35,810 nucleotides of DNA, taken from UHGV virus genome UHGV-1374208. One strand, given 5' to 3'. Numbering within the stretch: the first letter of the stretch is position 1; every line of letters begins with the position of its first letter. Positions 14,507 through 19,170 of this stretch are shown in pieces. The notes beneath the pieces were generated by a model that was not told the origin of the DNA, ran no database searches, and worked only from the letters and a program-made list of their open reading frames with translations. This DNA comes from a virus. Position numbers and translations under genes: made by a program.

Positions 14507-14545
14507 GGCACTGCCATGCCTGAGTATTACGAAAGGAGCGATTTT

Positions 14546-14773
14546 ATGAGACGTTGTAATTCACCTTTTAACGGAAAGCAATTTGTTTTAAACAAAAACA
14601 CTGGAGAAATTCACGATCTAGACCGCGAAACACCGCAATGTCAAATCGATGAAATAAAACCAGAACATGTTTTTAACTGCGACACTTATACAGAAGCTGT
14701 GATTTTTGCTTCCATGCTTGCTGTAAACAGAAACGGCTGTGCTTACTGCATGCCTGAAAAGAATAGAGGATAA
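14546..14773 (+). CDS. Small Ada-N-terminal-like zinc-binding domain protein (75 aa)
   Basis: The RBS is AAAGGAG. The segments FVLNKNTGEIH...C and NGCAYCMPEK parallel the Ada Zn-binding domain (VRTTGIFCRPSC...GFRPCKRCQPEK). It is antisense to the early operon and overlaps the 3' end of the 14743..15099 gene. Confidence 0.45.
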   Translation: MRRCNSPFNGKQFVLNKNTGEIHDLDRETPQCQIDEIKPEHVFNCDTYTEAVIFASMLAVNRNGCAYCMPEKNRG

Positions 14774-15117: not shown

Positions 15118-15399
15118 TTATATTCTGTCCTCTGCATTTCCGGGCTCGGAACCGGCTTCGGCTGCATTACAGTGCCAGAATGCGTCCGGCGGTTTATCAG
15201 AGCTGTTGTCATTTTCTTCAAGCCCAAGATCAATCAACATATCATTGAATTGATTGGAAATCTTTAAAATAAATTTTGTTAAAATAATAAGAGATTTCAC
15301 ATTCCCGCGATCTGATATCTTCCTGTGAGCTGATAGCAGATTTTTTATAACTGTCTTTCTAATGTAAAATCCAAACTCTTCTTTTGTTTTCATTTCCAT
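15118..15399 (-). CDS. Hypothetical early protein (first gene downstream of the early promoter)
   Basis: A 93-aa ORF with start ATG 15399 or 15393 and GTGAGG upstream. No HTH was recognised, so it is not an obvious Cro. Confidence 0.45.
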   Translation of the reverse strand: MEMKTKEEFGFYIRKTVIKNLLSAHRKISDRGNVKSLIILTKFILKISNQFNDMLIDLGLEENDNSSDKPPDAFWHCNAAEAGSEPGNAEDRI

Positions 15400-15431: not shown

Positions 15432-15536
15432 GAGTTTACAAACTCATAATACATCCATTTTTAGAGTTTGTCAACCCTATTTCTTAAAAATTTATTTGTT
15501 TTTTGAGTTGATAAACTCATGCAGTTATGATATAAT
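15432..15536. promoter_or_regulatory. Genetic-switch region: divergent consensus promoters with 14-bp operators (GAGTTT-NN-AAACTC)
   Basis: O1 is GAGTTTACAAACTC at 15432-15445 and O2 is GAGTTGATAAACTC at 15505-15518, with a half-site GAGTTTG at 15464-15470. The minus promoter reads TTGACA (15474-15469), a 17-nt spacer, then TATTAT (15451-15446). The plus promoter reads TTGATA (15508-15513), a 17-nt spacer, then TATAAT (15531-15536). Confidence 0.6.
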
Positions 15537-15559
15537 GTATTTTGCAAGGAGGTGATAGA

Positions 15560-15940
15560 ATGGAAATGTTCGAGCGAATAAAACTCCTCCGGACTGAACA
15601 ATTACATATGACACAGACCGAATTCGGTGAAGCTCTTGGAGTAAAAAGAGACGTTATAAATAATATTGAAAATAACCGTTTGAAAAATCCAGAGAAACAG
15701 GAACCGATTTATAGGTTGATGTGCGAAAAATTTAATGTAAACGAAAAATGGTTAAGAACCGGAAACGGTGAAATGTTTATCCCGTTGACAAGAGACCAGT
15801 TGATTACAGACTTCGCTGCTGATCTTATAATGGAAAACGATACATTTAAAAAGAGATTAGTAGAAGCTCTTGCAAAGCTGGATGAAAGTGAATGGGATGT
15901 CCTAGAAAAGCTCGCAGAGAGCTTAATTAAAAAAGACTAG
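15560..15940 (+). CDS. CI-like repressor (XRE-family HTH, no peptidase domain)
   Basis: The N-terminal HTH is MTQTEFGEALGVKRDVINNIENNR. The RBS is AAGGAGGTGA. The gene diverges from the early operon and lies just downstream of the operator-containing promoter. Confidence 0.65.
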   Translation: MEMFERIKLLRTEQLHMTQTEFGEALGVKRDVINNIENNRLKNPEKQEPIYRLMCEKFNVNEKWLRTGNGEMFIPLTRDQLITDFAADLIMENDTFKKRLVEALAKLDESEWDVLEKLAESLIKKD

Positions 15941-15952: not shown

Positions 15953-16243
15953 CCTAAAAGCTTTATGCAGAATCGGTACACAAGTTCCAACACCTCAATA
16001 TTGTTGGACTTGTTGACCAATTCGATGATAAGTTTTTTGTAGTCCATTCGCGATCCCCCTAACTGCAAAAACACTTGTTCGAAATCCCTGAACATATAAT
16101 ACTATCTCAGGGGACAAAAATCAATATTTTGTTCGAACATTTGTTCTGTTATTTTGTGGCAATGTTTTTGCCCTCTATTAAATAAACAGTTAAAATTCGG
16201 GAAACTTACGCGAAAATGGACAATCGTCCCAGATGTGGGACAC

Positions 16244-16441
16244 TTATTGATATGGAGAGTCGATAAGGTCGGAAATTCGGACTTTTAAGCCCTTGGCAAG
16301 CAATTCCAGCGTGTCAGCTGTCGGCGATATTTTACCATTTGCAATGCGGTTAATCGTTGATTTTGATATTCCAGTTGCAATGGATACTTGCCGAGTAGAT
16401 AGGTTTTTATCGTGCATGATCTTATCGAGTAGTATTTTCAT
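16244..16441 (-). CDS. Small XRE-family HTH protein (Cro-like), convergent with the repressor gene
   Basis: The 65-aa product has the HTH LSTRQVSIATGISKSTINRIANGK. There is no obvious SD sequence. A hairpin GTCCCA-GATG-TGGGAC lies just 3' of the stop. Confidence 0.6.
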   Translation of the reverse strand: MKILLDKIMHDKNLSTRQVSIATGISKSTINRIANGKISPTADTLELLAKGLKVRISDLIDSPYQ

Positions 16442-16453
16442 AGTGTAATTATT

Positions 16454-16481
16454 GTAGTATATTCCAAATCTGGAAACTACA
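16454..16481. promoter_or_regulatory. 28-bp imperfect palindrome in the divergent promoter region between the Cro-like and DUF4236 genes
   Basis: The palindrome is TGTAGT-ATATTCCAAATCTGGAAA-ACTACA, with outer 6-bp arms and an inner near-palindrome TTCCAAATCTGGAA. It lies 13-40 nt upstream of the Cro-like ATG. Confidence 0.35.
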
Positions 16482-16574
16482 GGTAAATAATGGTAATGAT
16501 ATAACCGCTTCGGCGTTTATATATAAATTGCGGGAAAAGTACAGGAGAGAAAAAGAAGGTGAATTAAGAAAGGA

Positions 16575-17600
16575 ATGGGATTTCGTTTCAGAAAAAGTTT
16601 TAAAATTGCTCCCGGTATAAAGTTTAATCTTAACAAGAATAGCCATAGCTTCACGTTTGGTGGAAAAGGAATTCACTACACTGTTAATTCTGATGGAAAA
16701 CGGACAAAAAGCTTTGGAATTCCAGGGAGCGGACTGTATTACACAGAAACCAAAAACGGAAAAACTAAAGAAAACAAGGGGAAAACAATGAGTAAAGCAT
16801 CGAATAAGAGTGGTGGTGGATGCCTTAGTGTTATTGCATTGCTGATAATGCTCTCTATTGCACTTGTAGTGTATTCTTTTTTATGGATACCAGCGATACC
16901 GGCATTGATATACTGTGTTGTATCCAAAAAATTCCGGCCATACAGGATCAGGAATACTGTGATATGCTCGATTGTGTTTGCAACATCTCTAATTATCTTT
17001 ATATGGCTTGGATCTCCGTCTGAATTGAACTCTATATCTGCAGAGTGGGGGAAAGAAGAATTTAATATCGGAGATGTAACGGAGGTGAAAATTACTCCAA
17101 GCCCGTCGGACGCAAAAATCGAAAGCTTGGAATTATCCGAAAATAATATCGCAGATCTCGAATATAAGGACGGAAAAGCCGTCATTACATTTACGGGTTC
17201 TGGGAATGCATCACTATTTTTTACGGCGAATGGAGAAATTAAAAGCAGTTCGAAAACTATTACCGTTATAGATCCGGAAGAAGAAGCGAGAATAAAAGCC
17301 GAGGAAGAAGAACGGATTAGGTTGGAACAGGAAGCTCAAGCAGCTGAACAGGCGCGTATCGAGCAAGAACAGGCTGCGGCTGCTGAACAGGAAAGGATTG
17401 CACAAGAGCAAGCTGCAGCGCAAGCAGCACAAGAGCAGGCTGCACAGCAAAGCCAAGATGACCCCATCGTGTATATAACAAACACTGGGGCAAAGTATCA
17501 TAGCGCTGGATGCAGAACTTTGAAATCTAAGATAGAAAAACATCTGTCTGAGGTACGCGGAGTTTATGAACCGTGCGGCATTTGCCATCCACCACAATAA
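16575..17600 (+). CDS. Multidomain membrane protein: DUF4236 N-terminus, 2 TM helices, Ig-like region, EQ/A-rich coiled-coil repeat, C-terminal Ada-like Zn-binding domain
   Basis: The N-terminus MGFRFRKSFKIAPGIKFNLNK carries the DUF4236 signature. The hydrophobic stretches are LSVIALLIMLSIALVVYSFLWIPAIPALIY and ICSIVFATSLIIFIWL. The repeat is EQEAQAAEQARIEQEQAAAAEQERIAQEQAAAQAAQEQ. The C-terminal segment IVYITNTGAKYHSAGC...VYEPCGICHPP parallels the Ada Zn-binding domain. Confidence 0.6.
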   Translation: MGFRFRKSFKIAPGIKFNLNKNSHSFTFGGKGIHYTVNSDGKRTKSFGIPGSGLYYTETKNGKTKENKGKTMSKASNKSGGGCLSVIALLIMLSIALVVYSFLWIPAIPALIYCVVSKKFRPYRIRNTVICSIVFATSLIIFIWLGSPSELNSISAEWGKEEFNIGDVTEVKITPSPSDAKIESLELSENNIADLEYKDGKAVITFTGSGNASLFFTANGEIKSSSKTITVIDPEEEARIKAEEEERIRLEQEAQAAEQARIEQEQAAAAEQERIAQEQAAAQAAQEQAAQQSQDDPIVYITNTGAKYHSAGCRTLKSKIEKHLSEVRGVYEPCGICHPPQ

Positions 17601-17769
17601 AATAAAAACCGCCCCTGCGCCAACAGAGACGGTATACATATCCGAAGATATGCTATTGAAATCCACGAATATTGTATCATCTTCGGGGCAGTCACGCAAG
17701 CGGAACGTTTGTTTTGCGCTGGCTGTTATTTTTGTACCAATTTTAAATATATTTTACAAAAGGAGAGTG

Positions 17770-19170
17770 ATGCAAATGCCAGAAAAAATACTGCGGTGTG
17801 CCATATACATCCGCGTCTCCACATTTGAGCAGAGCGTACATGGCAAGTCTCTGCAAGCACAGAAAGAATGCCTGGAGCAATACGCAACAGACAACAATAT
17901 GTCTATAGTAGGTGTCTATGCGGACGAGGGAAAGACTGCCAGAAAAGAATTGAAGAAAAGAAAAGCCATACACGCTCTTGTAGAGGACGTAAAAAGGGAT
18001 AAAATTGATGTGATAATTTTCTGGAGACTCGACAGATGGTTTCGAAATCTGTCAGATTTCTATAAGGTCCAGGATGTACTTGATGAGCATGGAGTGCGTT
18101 GGATCTCGGTTTCCGAGCCAGGAATAAACATGGAGACCAGAGACGGACGATTGCAGTTAAATGTAGTGCTGTCGATCGGGCAAAATGAAGTAGACACCAC
18201 ATCCGAGCGAATTAAATTTGTGAATGAAGCATCTATAAGACAGAAAAAGCTAATATTTGGAGATGCAAATATGCCTTTTGGTTATAAAACAGGTGTTGTA
18301 GATGGAAAGAAATGCATGGTTAAAGATTCGGAAACAGAACACATGGTGGAAGATTTTTTTGAATATTTTAGAAATCATAACTCCAAGAAGGGCGCTATCC
18401 GGTACATGCAGGAAACCTATGGAATTGATTTTAGCTATGGCATGTTACGGACGATGTTATCCAGCGAATTTTATAAAGGGACGTACAGAGGATACCCTTA
18501 TTGTCCAGCATACCTGTCAGAAAAAGAATGGGATGAGATGCAAACTATATCGAAAAGAAATATTAAAAACACGCCGTCTGGTAGAATATACCTATTTACA
18601 GGTTTGATGCGCTGTCCTGTGTGCGGACAGAAATTAGTTGGCACCGGATGCTCATCAATTATCAACCGTAAAACCGGAGAAAAAAGAACATACTGCTACT
18701 ACCGTTGCAACAGAGCGCTTATTGATCATATTTGCACGTATAGGCATAGGGTAAGCCAGAACCTTATCGAAAAATATCTGCTCGAAAATCTTGAAAGAGA
18801 GTACGAAAAGTATAAGGTCCGCACCAACCAGATCAGCGAAGAGTTAAAAAAGCAAAAGAAAGCGAAAGATCCGAAAAAGCTTAGAAAAGAAATGGAACGA
18901 TTAAATATATTATTTCAAAAAGGGCGGATCTCTTACGATTACTACGATAAGGAGTACCAAAGATTGGAGAGAGAATATTCCGCTTCTGCTGCTTTTTGCG
19001 AGGAAGAAGAGACGAGAAACCTGCATTATGTAGAAGAACTATTAAAAACTGACTTTCGCCAGATGTATGATTCGCTGTCTCCGGAAAACAAGCGTTCTTT
19101 TTGGAGATCCACGATACAGGAGATTTACCTAAATGATGACAATACGATTAAAGCTGTAGATTTTTTATAA
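17770..19170 (+). CDS. int: Large serine recombinase (integrase)
   Basis: The resolvase-type catalytic N-terminus is AIYIRVSTFEQ with the Ser nucleophile. It is followed by a recombinase domain, a zinc ribbon (CPVCGQ...CYYRC) and a C-terminal coiled coil. The start at ATG 17770 has an RBS AAAGGAGAG. The track ORF from 17566 is treated as an upstream in-frame extension. Confidence 0.9.
   Translation: MQMPEKILRCAIYIRVSTFEQSVHGKSLQAQKECLEQYATDNNMSIVGVYADEGKTARKELKKRKAIHALVEDVKRDKIDVIIFWRLDRWFRNLSDFYKVQDVLDEHGVRWISVSEPGINMETRDGRLQLNVVLSIGQNEVDTTSERIKFVNEASIRQKKLIFGDANMPFGYKTGVVDGKKCMVKDSETEHMVEDFFEYFRNHNSKKGAIRYMQETYGIDFSYGMLRTMLSSEFYKGTYRGYPYCPAYLSEKEWDEMQTISKRNIKNTPSGRIYLFTGLMRCPVCGQKLVGTGCSSIINRKTGEKRTYCYYRCNRALIDHICTYRHRVSQNLIEKYLLENLEREYEKYKVRTNQISEELKKQKKAKDPKKLRKEMERLNILFQKGRISYDYYDKEYQRLEREYSASAAFCEEEETRNLHYVEELLKTDFRQMYDSLSPENKRSFWRSTIQEIYLNDDNTIKAVDFL

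What the first reader, a model, noticed from the sequence alone, without database searches (positions are those of the whole stretch)
16575..17600. DUF4236 / transmembrane / Ig-like / EQ-rich coiled-coil / Ada-Zn-like chimeric membrane protein in the lysogeny module
The gene lies between the Cro-like gene and the integrase, the classic position for superinfection-exclusion or lysogenic-conversion genes. It joins a DUF4236 N-terminus, two TM helices, a probable Ig-like domain and a low-complexity E/Q/A repeat (RIEQEQAAAAEQERIAQEQAAA...). Its C-terminal module strikingly parallels the Ada N-terminal Zn-binding domain (TGAKYHSAGC...VYEPCGICHPP versus TTGIFCRPSC...GFRPCKRCQP). I do not recognise this domain combination as a described system.
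Basis: partly seen in the sequence, partly recalled or inferred. Interest (0 to 1): 0.7.

Follow-up and report, generated by a model that had tools for sequence, protein, structure and literature searches.

The report
Prophage surface protein with Ada-like zinc tip
A gut-bacterium (Ruminococcus gnavus) phage carries, in the slot next to its integrase where sister phages carry a known "keep other phages out" gene, an uncharacterised membrane protein that probably holds a small zinc-binding, DNA-repair-like module outside the cell on a long stalk; its function is untested but it is a reasonable candidate for a new phage-exclusion or cell-surface factor.

Summary
The ORF is real: window 16575-17600 (+), 341 aa, dN/dS 0.08 across 14 alleles.

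- **DUF4236:** residues 3-57, E=2e-19.
- **Membrane region:** three hydrophobic helices, not two. The charge pattern indicates N-terminus in, C-terminus out.
- **Ig-like domain:** a Big_2-type sandwich, supported at fold level only.
- **E/Q/A-rich helix:** 59 residues, better read as a variable-length spacer (31-98 aa in relatives) than as a coiled coil.

His replaces Ada Cys38. The module type is usually secreted or membrane-anchored, is very common (about 23,000 cluster representatives), and was described in 2025 as the ECOD "ADA_N-like" group.

In all nine further contexts examined, the gene lies between repressor and integrase. Sister phages share the flanking DNA but carry an Ltp-type superinfection-exclusion gene there instead.

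The function is inferred from position only. Most likely it is a prophage-expressed surface protein acting in superinfection exclusion (about 0.4). It is an uncharacterised but widespread family of moderate interest.

The parts
16575..17600 (+). Whole gene: a 341-aa membrane protein (DUF4236, three hydrophobic helices, Big_2-like domain, helical stalk, ADA_N-like HCCC module), stop codon included
   Evidence: ORF list. AF2 model with pLDDT 80.8. More than 691 homologues. dN/dS 0.08 over 14 distinct alleles.
16581..16745 (+). DUF4236 domain (residues 3-57): beta-rich, net charge about +9, inferred cytoplasmic
   Evidence: PF14020 at E=2e-19. N-terminal PHROG matches. Six strands in the AF2 model. 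11 K+R against 2 D+E. dN/dS 0.02. Present in 73 of the best 120 homologues.
16776..16790 (+). Possible internal start: Met72 (ATG 16788-16790) preceded by AAGGGG (16776-16781) with a 6-nt spacer. It aligns with the start Met of homologues that lack DUF4236.
   Evidence: M72 is invariant among close homologues. Short homologues begin at this point. DNA read directly. Use of this start is inferred only.
16821..17012 (+). Membrane region (residues 83-146): helix 83-101, short helix 104-116 after the conserved W104-x-P106 turn, a K/R-rich loop 118-127, and helix 121/128-146
   Evidence: AF2 helices. Invariant G82, C83, W104 and S138. K+R counts across 55 homologues are 3.5 in the N flank, 4.6 in the loop and 0.9 in the C flank (D+E 4.2 there), which gives N-in/C-out. 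The topology is inferred.
17022..17273 (+). Big_2-type Ig-like beta-sandwich (residues 150-233), inferred extracytoplasmic
   Evidence: pLDDT above 90. Foldseek PDB hits 7quz, 8gyr, 9e99 and 2l04 at E about 5e-4. BFVD BIG2 proteins. No Pfam hit.
17274..17450 (+). E/Q/A/R-rich single long helix (residues 234-292): a stalk or spacer
   Evidence: AF2 helix 234-292. Length 31-98 aa in relatives, 87% E/Q/A/K/R, and 5 hydrophobic residues in 62. The TolA full-length model hit (E=5.6e-7, below its cut-off) is compositional. No DNA tandem repeat beyond a 9-nt unit in 2.7 copies.
17460..17597 (+). ADA_N-like zinc module (residues 296-341) with ligands H309, C313, C334 and C337
16244..16441 (-). 65-aa Cro/C1-type HTH gene, divergent from the target and co-inherited with it; a possible dedicated regulator
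   Evidence: PF13443 at E=2.7e-13. Found next to the target in 17 of 24 loci, including distant ones (L007, L053), while the cI-like gene and the integrase vary. It lies in a 340-bp stretch that is absent from the phiRg phages carrying other cargo.
16442..16574 (.). Divergent intergenic region with weak promoter-like sites on both strands and a 10-4-10 dyad (16499-16522, ATATAACCGC-TTCG-GCGTTTATAT). The part 16496-16574 is shared with sister phages that carry other cargo.
   Evidence: Promoter scan. Inverted repeat. Conservation. Function is inferred.
17601..17769 (.). Conserved spacer between cargo and integrase (right flank of the cargo slot), with a GC-rich hairpin at 17608-17633
   Evidence: 87-88% identical by BLAST to phiRg phages with different cargo and a tyrosine integrase (four-sequence alignment A7, mean column identity 81%). 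The hairpin is terminator-like on the minus strand. No Rfam match.
17770..19170 (+). Large serine integrase (466 aa from ATG 17770, RBS AAAGGAGAG)
   Evidence: PF00239, PF07508 and PF13408. PHROG_95 integrase at E=7e-99. Start read from the sequence.
15542..15940 (+). cI-like HTH repressor candidate (132 aa) at the head of the lysogeny-strand block
   Evidence: HTH_3 and HTH_19. PHROG_8 and PHROG_4. Strong divergent promoter-like pair at 15446-15536.

Best explanation
**What it is (shown).** The gene is a cargo ('moron') gene of the lysogeny module of a temperate Ruminococcus/Mediterraneibacter gnavus siphophage.

- It is transcribed on the same strand as the repressor candidate and the integrase.
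- It is a conserved, purifying-selected gene.
- Its domains are DUF4236, three hydrophobic helices, a Big_2-like sandwich, a long helix, and a remote Ada N-terminal homologue with H-C-C-C ligands.

**How it sits in the cell (inferred).**
- The basic DUF4236 domain stays in the cytoplasm.
- Helices 83-101 and 104-116 form a hairpin, and helix 128-146 exports the C-terminal 195 residues.
- The Big_2 domain sits on the outer face of the membrane.
- The 59-residue helix acts as a stalk of roughly 9 nm.
- The stalk holds the zinc module in the cell-wall zone.

**What it does (inferred from position and analogy).** In the lysogen it interferes with a superinfecting phage at the envelope. The most likely step is DNA entry: the module would bind the ejected DNA or the tail-tip/tape-measure complex. 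That is the step blocked by the Ltp-type protein that occupies the same slot in sister phages.

The linked 65-aa HTH protein probably controls the divergent promoter region.
For: **The gene is real and maintained.** (dN/dS 0.02-0.16 in every domain).

**Architecture.**

**The C-terminus is outside the cell.**
- The positive-inside pattern holds across 55 homologues.
- Stand-alone copies of the module often carry signal peptides or lipoboxes.
- The module co-occurs with SNase (10 of 80), PG_binding, LytR_cpsA_psr, ChW and Lactamase_B domains.
- Pei et al. 2025 report ADA_N-like domains in signal-peptide proteins, including Cwp27 and a ComEC/Rec2 protein.
- Big_2 folds are typical of surface proteins.

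**Position.**
- In nine further contexts the gene lies between the repressor (with or without ImmA) and a serine or tyrosine integrase at the prophage end.
- In IMG/VR prophage-form contigs it lies about 1.7 kb from the contig end.

**Slot equivalence.**
- phiRg507T2_3 and phiRg507T2_2 share the flanks 16012-16155, 16496-16574 and 17591-17747 at 80-89% identity.
- Between those flanks they carry either a protein with two Ltp repeats (PF07553, E=1e-50; annotated as a superinfection exclusion protein) or a lipoprotein plus a Zn-finger membrane protein.
- In L032 an Ltp-domain gene sits directly beside a homologue of the target.

**Link to DNA handling outside the cell.** SNase fusions and the ComEC fusion.
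Against: - No experiment or homology ties this family to exclusion. PADLOC gives no hit, no Pfam Sie model hits it, every matching PHROG is of unknown function, and no annotated Sie protein appears among the BFVD fold matches.
- The slot also carries genes unrelated to exclusion, such as Uma2, RhuM and a sigma factor. Position is therefore weak evidence.
- Average dN/dS shows no arms-race signal in the ectodomain.
- The co-occurrence with Ltp in L032 could equally mean a different, non-redundant role.
- The topology is inferred from charge bias. The middle helix is only about 13-14 residues long.
- Zinc and DNA binding are untested.
- Expression in lysogens is not shown. The promoter-like matches are weak, at 9 of 12.
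Confidence: 0.4

Rival explanations
1. Lysogenic-conversion surface factor unrelated to phage exclusion. The stalked ADA_N-like module binds a polyanion in the envelope, such as extracellular DNA or a wall glycopolymer. This would change aggregation, biofilm formation or gut colonisation of the lysogen.
For: The surface architecture is the same as in the best explanation. The module occurs in many non-phage secreted and cell-wall proteins: PG_binding, LytR_cpsA_psr, ChW, SNase, and arrays of up to 17 copies. Cwp27 and ComEC carry it too. Purifying selection without an arms-race signal fits this reading.
Against: All nine contexts examined and 16 IMG/VR contigs are prophage or phage. None is in core chromosome. 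The same slot in sister phages holds an Ltp-type exclusion protein. No ligand has been identified.
Confidence: 0.25
2. Transmembrane sensor working with a linked transcription factor. The extracellular module senses a cue, and the cytoplasmic DUF4236 domain modulates the divergent 65-aa HTH protein (or, in some phages, an ECF-like sigma factor). This would tune integrase expression or the lysis-lysogeny decision.
For: The 65-aa HTH gene is co-inherited with the target in 17 of 24 loci while cI and integrase vary, and it is absent where other cargo fills the slot. A conserved dyad lies in the shared promoter region. In L056 a Sigma70_r2/r4 protein sits directly upstream of the target. DUF4236 is the most constrained domain, with dN/dS 0.02.
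Against: About 40% of the best 120 homologues lack DUF4236 altogether. Several contexts have neither the HTH gene nor a sigma factor. DUF4236 has no resemblance to known anti-sigma domains, and no interaction has been tested. A divergent small HTH gene may simply autoregulate the cargo promoter.
Confidence: 0.12
3. Abortive-infection type membrane effector. The cytoplasmic DUF4236 domain detects an infecting phage component, and the three-helix membrane domain then damages the membrane.
For: Prophage defence genes cluster next to the repressor and integrase (established knowledge). The protein has a polytopic membrane domain with invariant residues G82, C83, W104 and S138, and a conserved basic cytoplasmic domain.
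Against: The large, conserved extracellular part (Big_2, stalk and zinc module, all under purifying selection) has no role in this model. There is no PADLOC match. Many homologues lack DUF4236.
Confidence: 0.08
4. A chance or degenerate chimeric ORF with no function.
For: Low-complexity E/Q/A segment. No Pfam hit beyond DUF4236 for the window protein itself.
Against: More than 691 homologues have the same domain order. dN/dS is 0.08 with dS 0.72. The AF2 domains are confident. The zinc ligands are invariant.
Confidence: 0.01

Closest known systems
Ltp-type superinfection-exclusion lipoproteins (Streptococcus phage TP-J34 Ltp; PF07553; here phiRg507T2_3 gp22)
   Same: Both are prophage genes in the repressor-integrase slot. 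In R. gnavus phages they lie literally between the same conserved flanks. Both are anchored in the membrane with a nucleic-acid-binding-type fold displayed outside the cell. That Ltp blocks DNA injection is from my own knowledge.
   Different: There is no sequence or fold similarity and no PF07553 hit. The target has a polytopic anchor plus a cytoplasmic DUF4236 domain instead of a lipid anchor. It carries Big_2, a stalk and a zinc module instead of HTH-like repeats. The exclusion phenotype is untested.
ECOD 'ADA_N-like domains' (Pei, Schaeffer, Cong and Grishin 2025, PMC12353581): C-terminal domains of C. difficile Cwp27 and a ComEC/Rec2 protein, and of M. tuberculosis ArfC
   Different: That paper does not describe a prophage protein, the DUF4236-TM-Big_2-stalk architecture, the consistent His at the first ligand position, or arrays of up to 17 copies.
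E. coli Ada N-terminal domain (N-Ada10; PF02805; PDB 1adn, 1eyf, 1u8b)
   Same: The fold and ligand spacing match. H309, C313, C334 and C337 align with C38, C42, C69 and C72, and the 'SEA..G..PCxxC' motif is shared.
   Different: The first ligand is His, not Cys. Cys38 is the methyl acceptor in the N-Ada/DNA structure as I recall it, whereas Pei et al. name Cys69, which is retained here. The module is C-terminal and extracytoplasmic, and it is not followed by AraC-HTH or methyltransferase domains. The window's own sequence does not reach PF02805.
Big_2 Ig-like domains on phage and bacterial surfaces (lambda gpV C-terminal domain, N4 decoration protein, Leptospira LigA)
   Same: Same beta-sandwich fold at E about 5e-4. 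These domains are typically surface-exposed.
   Different: Here the domain is part of a host-membrane-anchored prophage protein, not a virion protein. There is no Pfam Big_2 hit.
Small membrane Sie proteins of lactococcal P335 phages (Sie2009 type)
   Same: A membrane protein encoded between the integrase and the repressor of a temperate Gram-positive siphophage (my own knowledge).
   Different: Those proteins are much smaller, have a single span and lack these domains. No similarity was tested or found.

Membership tests
DUF4236 (PF14020) | Match to the Pfam model above the gathering score | tested here: met
   70.2 bits against a cut-off of 27, E=2e-19, residues 3-57 covering the full model 1-55.
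Ada_Zn_binding sensu stricto (PF02805, N-Ada) | Match of the window's own sequence to the Pfam model | tested here: not met
   No PF02805 hit even at E<=10 for the isolated module or at E<=1 for the whole protein. However, 35 of 64 and 32 of 80 related module-bearing proteins do hit it, with best E-values of 3.7e-7 and 1.2e-14.
Ada_Zn_binding sensu stricto (PF02805, N-Ada) | Four cysteine zinc ligands (C38, C42, C69, C72) | tested here: not met
   The ligand set is H309, C313, C334, C337. The His is invariant in 55, 64 and 45-sequence alignments and aligns with C38.
Ada_Zn_binding sensu stricto (PF02805, N-Ada) | Cytoplasmic context, N-terminal position, followed by AraC-type HTH and/or methyltransferase domains | tested here: not met
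   The module is C-terminal, lies after three hydrophobic helices, and is inferred to be outside the cell. No HTH_18 or methyltransferase hits.
ECOD X-group 'ADA_N-like domains' | Remote sequence homology to Ada N-terminal by profile methods | tested here: met
   hhalign gives 95.4% probability over 48 columns. A profile search of PDB sequences returns only Ada chains, at E=0.01-0.014.
ECOD X-group 'ADA_N-like domains' | Same fold as N-Ada | tested here: met
ECOD X-group 'ADA_N-like domains' | Binds zinc | not testable with these tools
   This needs metal analysis of purified protein. Only the invariant ligand pattern is shown.
Big_2 (PF02368) Ig-like domains | Match to the Pfam model | tested here: not met
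   No Big_2 hit. The only weak hit is Invasin_D3 at E=0.05.
Big_2 (PF02368) Ig-like domains | Big_2-type beta-sandwich fold | tested here: met
   Foldseek PDB hits 7quz, 7r3t, 8gyr, 9e99 and 2l04 at E 5e-4 to 1e-3 over 86-94 columns. BFVD BIG2 proteins also match.
Ltp-type superinfection exclusion proteins (PF07553) | Ltp repeat domain | tested here: not met
   No PF07553 hit for the target. The positive control phiRg507T2_3 gp22 gives E=9.6e-51.
Superinfection-exclusion genes as a functional class | Encoded in the lysogeny module between repressor and integrase of a temperate phage | tested here: met
   True in the window and in nine other contexts. The slot is shared with an Ltp gene.
Superinfection-exclusion genes as a functional class | Expression in the lysogen, and protection against other phages without loss of adsorption | not testable with these tools
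   This needs RNA-seq of lysogens and plating, adsorption and DNA-entry assays.
Known anti-phage defence systems (PADLOC-DB) | Match to any defence-protein model | tested here: not met
   No family at E<=1.
Coiled-coil proteins | Heptad pattern of hydrophobic core positions, and oligomerisation | tested here: inconclusive
   Only I240, I248, L250, I262 and I275 are hydrophobic in 62 residues, and the composition is 87% E/Q/A/K/R. The AF2 monomer shows one straight helix. Oligomerisation was not modelled.

The most novel reading that the evidence does not exclude
The protein is a new kind of superinfection-exclusion device. A prophage-encoded membrane stalk presents an extracellular Ada-derived zinc module that binds nucleic acid outside the cell. 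It would capture or misdirect the DNA, or the DNA-conducting tail tip, of an incoming phage before the DNA crosses the membrane. The cytoplasmic DUF4236 domain and the linked 65-aa HTH protein would couple this to regulation of the cargo-integrase operon.
Probability: 0.13. Interest if true: 0.75.

Novelty: new member of a known kind. Interest (0 to 1): 0.45.

Why it matters
R. gnavus is a prevalent gut species linked to inflammatory bowel disease, and phage-based manipulation of it is being explored (PMC10072058, PMC13435783). Those authors suspect that prophage-mediated exclusion limits phage host range, but they name no factor beyond an Ltp homologue.

This family is widespread in Lachnospiraceae prophages, with more than 691 homologues. 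It occupies the same cassette slot as Ltp, which makes it a concrete candidate that can be tested cheaply.

It would also give a first biological handle on two very common but functionless modules. DUF4236 is one. The other is the secreted ADA_N-like zinc domain, which has about 23,000 cluster representatives and is fused to secreted nucleases and ComEC.

If the gene turns out to be an ordinary surface moron, the result still documents a cargo slot with conserved flanks in these phages.

Tried and rejected
- **Single-sequence searches of the C-terminal module gave nothing.** Pfam, NCBIfam and PDB all failed. Only family profiles revealed the Ada link.
- **The TolA hit is compositional.** The NCBIfam full-length TolA model matched residues 235-291 at 29 bits against a cut-off of 59. 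I rejected it as an E/A/K/Q-rich artefact.
- **No defence annotation.** PADLOC found nothing. All PHROG matches are of unknown function. BFVD returned no annotated exclusion protein.
- **Genome-wide synteny scan did not work.** It failed with the broad alignment. With a narrower alignment it mostly returned unrelated proteins that share only the zinc module. Synteny therefore rests on nine look-ups, not on a census.
- **The invariant G82-C83 is not a lipobox.** It precedes rather than follows the hydrophobic segment and has no [LVI][ASTVI][GAS]C context.
- **Two-TM topology with a cytoplasmic C-terminus rejected.** The 118-127 loop is the most basic segment, and the module family is typically secreted.
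- **Recent tandem duplication as the origin of the stalk rejected.** TRF finds only a 9-nt unit in 2.7 copies.
- **The conserved cargo-integrase spacer is not a known RNA**. It is not attP either, because it lies inside integrated prophages.
- **The 130-aa ORF upstream of the target in L007 is not a sigma-factor relative.** It shows no similarity to the L056 sigma factor.
- **Literature.** A search for DUF4236 found one irrelevant paper. A search for secreted Ada-like domains with thermonuclease found nothing relevant.
Full report
**1. The observation**

The ORF at 16575-17600 (+) is present as described, with an ATG start and 341 codons.

The window is a temperate Ruminococcus (Mediterraneibacter) gnavus siphophage.
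- It is about 93-95% identical across this region to phage RG-TP1 (PQ571303). The orthologue there, gp43, is annotated 'hypothetical protein'.
- Identical or near-identical copies occur in 16 IMG/VR contigs.
- Across 14 distinct alleles from those contigs, dN/dS is 0.08 overall at dS 0.72. By domain it is 0.02 for DUF4236, 0.16 for the membrane region, 0.10 for the sandwich, 0.03 for the helix and 0.03 for the zinc module.

Every part of the gene is therefore under purifying selection, and it is not a chance ORF. A word-indexed search found 691 homologues at E<=1e-3 among only 8,000 scored candidates, so the family is large.

**2. Anatomy**

*DUF4236.* Pfam places DUF4236 at residues 3-57 (E=2e-19).

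*AlphaFold2 model.* A model built on a 55-sequence family alignment has mean pLDDT 80.8. It shows:
- a six-stranded N-terminal domain;
- helices at 83-101, 104-116 and 121-146;
- a beta-sandwich at 153-232 with pLDDT above 90;
- one unbroken helix at 234-292;
- a small alpha/beta module at 298-333.

*The sandwich.* It matches Big_2-type Ig domains in PDB: Big_2-CBM56 7quz, LigA 8gyr, the phage N4 capsid decoration protein and the lambda gpV C-terminal domain, at E about 5e-4. It also matches BIG2 proteins of phages in BFVD. No Pfam Ig model reaches it.

*The helix.* It is 87% E/Q/A/K/R, has five hydrophobic residues in 62, and ranges from 31 to 98 residues among homologues. I read it as a variable-length spacer. 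A coiled coil is neither shown nor excluded.

*Invariant residues.* Across the family these are G82, C83, W104, S138, F206, G210, H309, C313, C334 and C337.

*DUF4236 is optional.* 73 of the best 120 homologues carry it. The others start exactly where the window protein has Met72. Met72 is invariant among close relatives and is preceded by AAGGGG with a 6-nt spacer. An internal start or an old gene fusion is possible, but neither is shown.

**3. The C-terminal module**

The window's own module hits nothing in Pfam, NCBIfam or PDB sequences. A profile of the module behaves differently.
- It finds only the four Ada N-terminal entries among 177,635 PDB sequences, at E=0.01, with H309, C313, C334 and C337 aligned to Ada C38, C42, C69 and C72.
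- hhalign against E. coli Ada 1-92 gives 95.4% probability.
- PF02805 is hit by 35 of 64 short module-only proteins and by 32 of 80 longer module-bearing proteins. DUF6233 is hit by 28 of those 80.

It is not an Ada-type domain in function, for three reasons.
- The first ligand is always His.
- The module is C-terminal.
- Its relatives are typically secreted.

Many stand-alone copies have signal peptides or lipoboxes. Partner domains include SNase (10 of 80), PG_binding, LytR_cpsA_psr, ChW and metallo-beta-lactamase.

An exhaustive profile search found 22,985 cluster representatives at E<=1e-3, with up to 17 stretches matched by the search in one protein.

This class has been described. Pei et al. 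2025 created the ECOD 'ADA_N-like domains' group for C-terminal domains of C. difficile Cwp27, a ComEC/Rec2 protein and M. tuberculosis ArfC. They noted signal peptides and left the function open.

One caveat applies to the His substitution. I recall Cys38 as the methyl acceptor in the 1u8b work, whereas Pei et al. name Cys69, whose equivalent is retained here. Loss of methyl-acceptor chemistry is therefore an inference.

**4. Topology (inferred)**

Across 55 homologues the charge pattern is as follows.

| Segment | K+R (mean) | D+E (mean) |
|---|---|---|
| 15 residues before helix 1 | 3.5 | 1.2 |
| Loop 118-127 | 4.6 | 0.8 |
| 20 residues after helix 3 | 0.9 | 4.2 |

Taken with the secreted nature of the module family and the Big_2 fold, this points to one arrangement: N-terminus and loop inside, a 21 + 14 residue helical hairpin turning at the conserved W104-x-P106, and the C-terminal 195 residues outside. 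The short middle helix is the weak point of this model.

**5. Surroundings**

*Local gene order.* The + strand block runs cI-like HTH (15542-15940), target gene, then serine integrase. The integrase's real start is most likely ATG 17770, behind AAAGGAGAG. A 65-aa Cro/C1-type HTH gene (16244-16441) lies on the minus strand, divergent from the target. The 133-bp spacer between them contains a 10-4-10 dyad.

*Other contexts.* In nine further contexts, from different phages with different replication modules, a homologue lies between the repressor (often with ImmA) and a serine or tyrosine integrase at the prophage-host junction. Its neighbours in that slot include:
- an Ltp-domain protein (L032);
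- a DUF4352/DUF5067 lipoprotein (L036);
- Uma2;
- RhuM;
- in one case an ECF-like sigma factor (L056).

*Slot equivalence.* This is the most telling result. Phages phiRg507T2_3 and phiRg507T2_2 share the flanks 16012-16155, 16496-16574 (which runs up to the start codon) and 17591-17747 at 80-89% identity. Between those flanks they carry one of two things:
- a protein with two Ltp repeats (PF07553, E=1e-50), annotated and published as a superinfection-exclusion protein;
- a lipoprotein plus a Zn-finger membrane protein.

The target is thus one alternative cargo of a cassette slot with conserved expression flanks.

*The linked HTH gene.* The 65-aa HTH gene lies in a 340-bp stretch absent from those phages. 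It accompanies the target in 17 of 24 loci while cI and integrase vary. It probably belongs to the cargo.

**6. Mechanism**

*Shown.* A conserved protein with the stated domains, encoded in the lysogeny-module cargo slot.

*Inferred.* The protein is expressed in lysogens. The N-terminus is inside and the ectodomain outside. The stalk holds a zinc module in the wall zone.

*Best guess (0.4).* Superinfection exclusion at the envelope, most plausibly at DNA entry. This follows by analogy with Ltp in the same slot, and from the recurrent fusion of this module to extracellular DNA-handling proteins (SNase, ComEC).

*Rivals.*
- A surface factor that serves host fitness, through eDNA or wall binding (0.25).
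- A sensor coupled to the linked HTH protein or sigma factor (0.12).
- An abortive-infection membrane effector (0.08).
- A non-functional ORF (refuted).

*Against the exclusion reading.*
- No homology links the family to any tested exclusion or defence protein.
- The slot also holds unrelated cargo.
- There is no elevated dN/dS.

**7. Comparison with known families and novelty**

By membership the protein is a DUF4236 protein and carries an ADA_N-like domain and a Big_2-like fold. It fails the tests for PF02805 sensu stricto, for PF07553 and for PADLOC families.

By likely mode of action it is closest to Ltp-type exclusion proteins, but this is untested.

The family and its architecture are not described in the searchable literature. 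Its parts, however, are known, and its genomic role as cargo in the repressor-integrase slot is a well-known kind. I rate it a new member of a known kind, of moderate interest (0.45). It is a good, cheap experimental target rather than a surprise.

Noticed in passing
window 17601-17769: The spacer of about 150 nt between cargo gene and integrase is 87-88% identical by BLAST (aligned in A7) in R. gnavus phages that differ both in cargo and in integrase class (serine here, tyrosine in the phiRg phages). It contains a GC-rich hairpin (17608-17633, terminator-like on the minus strand) and an 8-bp inverted repeat CCGAAGAT...ATCTTCGG read directly from the sequence. There is no Rfam match. It may be a recombination joint, an integrase promoter or leader, or an antisense terminator.
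   Followed up: partly
window 16244-16441 (-) and 16156-16495: A 65-aa Cro/C1-type HTH gene lies in a 340-bp stretch that is absent from sister phages with other cargo. It travels with the target gene in 17 of 24 loci. The matching DNA is present in RG-TP1 (83% identical by tblastn), but no feature is annotated there.
   Followed up: partly
window 16499-16522: A 10-4-10 dyad, ATATAACCGC-TTCG-GCGTTTATAT, lies in the divergent promoter region between the HTH gene and the target. It is conserved in close relatives. It is a candidate operator or 5'-UTR hairpin.
   Followed up: partly
window 17566-17769: The mechanically listed integrase ORF starts at 17566 and overlaps the target. The start at ATG 17770, behind AAAGGAGAG, is far more likely: the Resolvase domain then begins at residue 11. 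RG-TP1 gp42 is annotated with the long form.
   Followed up: yes
proteins P0203-P0229: Proteins of 590-1,260 aa carry 7-17 tandem copies of the H-C-C-C ADA_N-like module. Many begin with a short basic beta-rich N-terminus such as 'MATRQLGKLKYNISKRGIAYKWGDGE'. Arrays of this length are not mentioned in the ECOD paper.
   Followed up: no
L056 4413-4964 (+): In one prophage an ECF-like sigma factor (Sigma70_r2 and r4_2, with a weak Phage_antitermQ match) sits directly upstream of a DUF4236-family homologue. The layout resembles a sigma/anti-sigma gene pair. This was seen in only one of nine contexts.
   Followed up: partly
L007/L008/L055, about 10,930-11,140 in L007: The serine-integrase prophages carrying the P0084/P0088 homologues abut a 68-aa Mn_catalase fragment next to cotJA and cotJB. 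This suggests integration into, and disruption of, a cotJC-like spore-coat catalase gene.
   Followed up: no
window 15446-15536: A strong divergent pair of promoter-like sites (each 11 of 12 matches) lies between the cI-like gene (15542-15940, +) and a 93-aa minus-strand ORF (15118-15399) that has no detectable HTH. This is probably the genetic switch, with an unrecognised Cro analogue.
   Followed up: no
window 14516-14773 (+): An 85-aa Cys-rich ORF matches PHROG_28292 (unknown function, E=6e-33). RG-TP1 annotates its counterpart as '3-hydroxyacyl-CoA dehydrogenase', which looks like an annotation artefact for a protein of this size.
   Followed up: no
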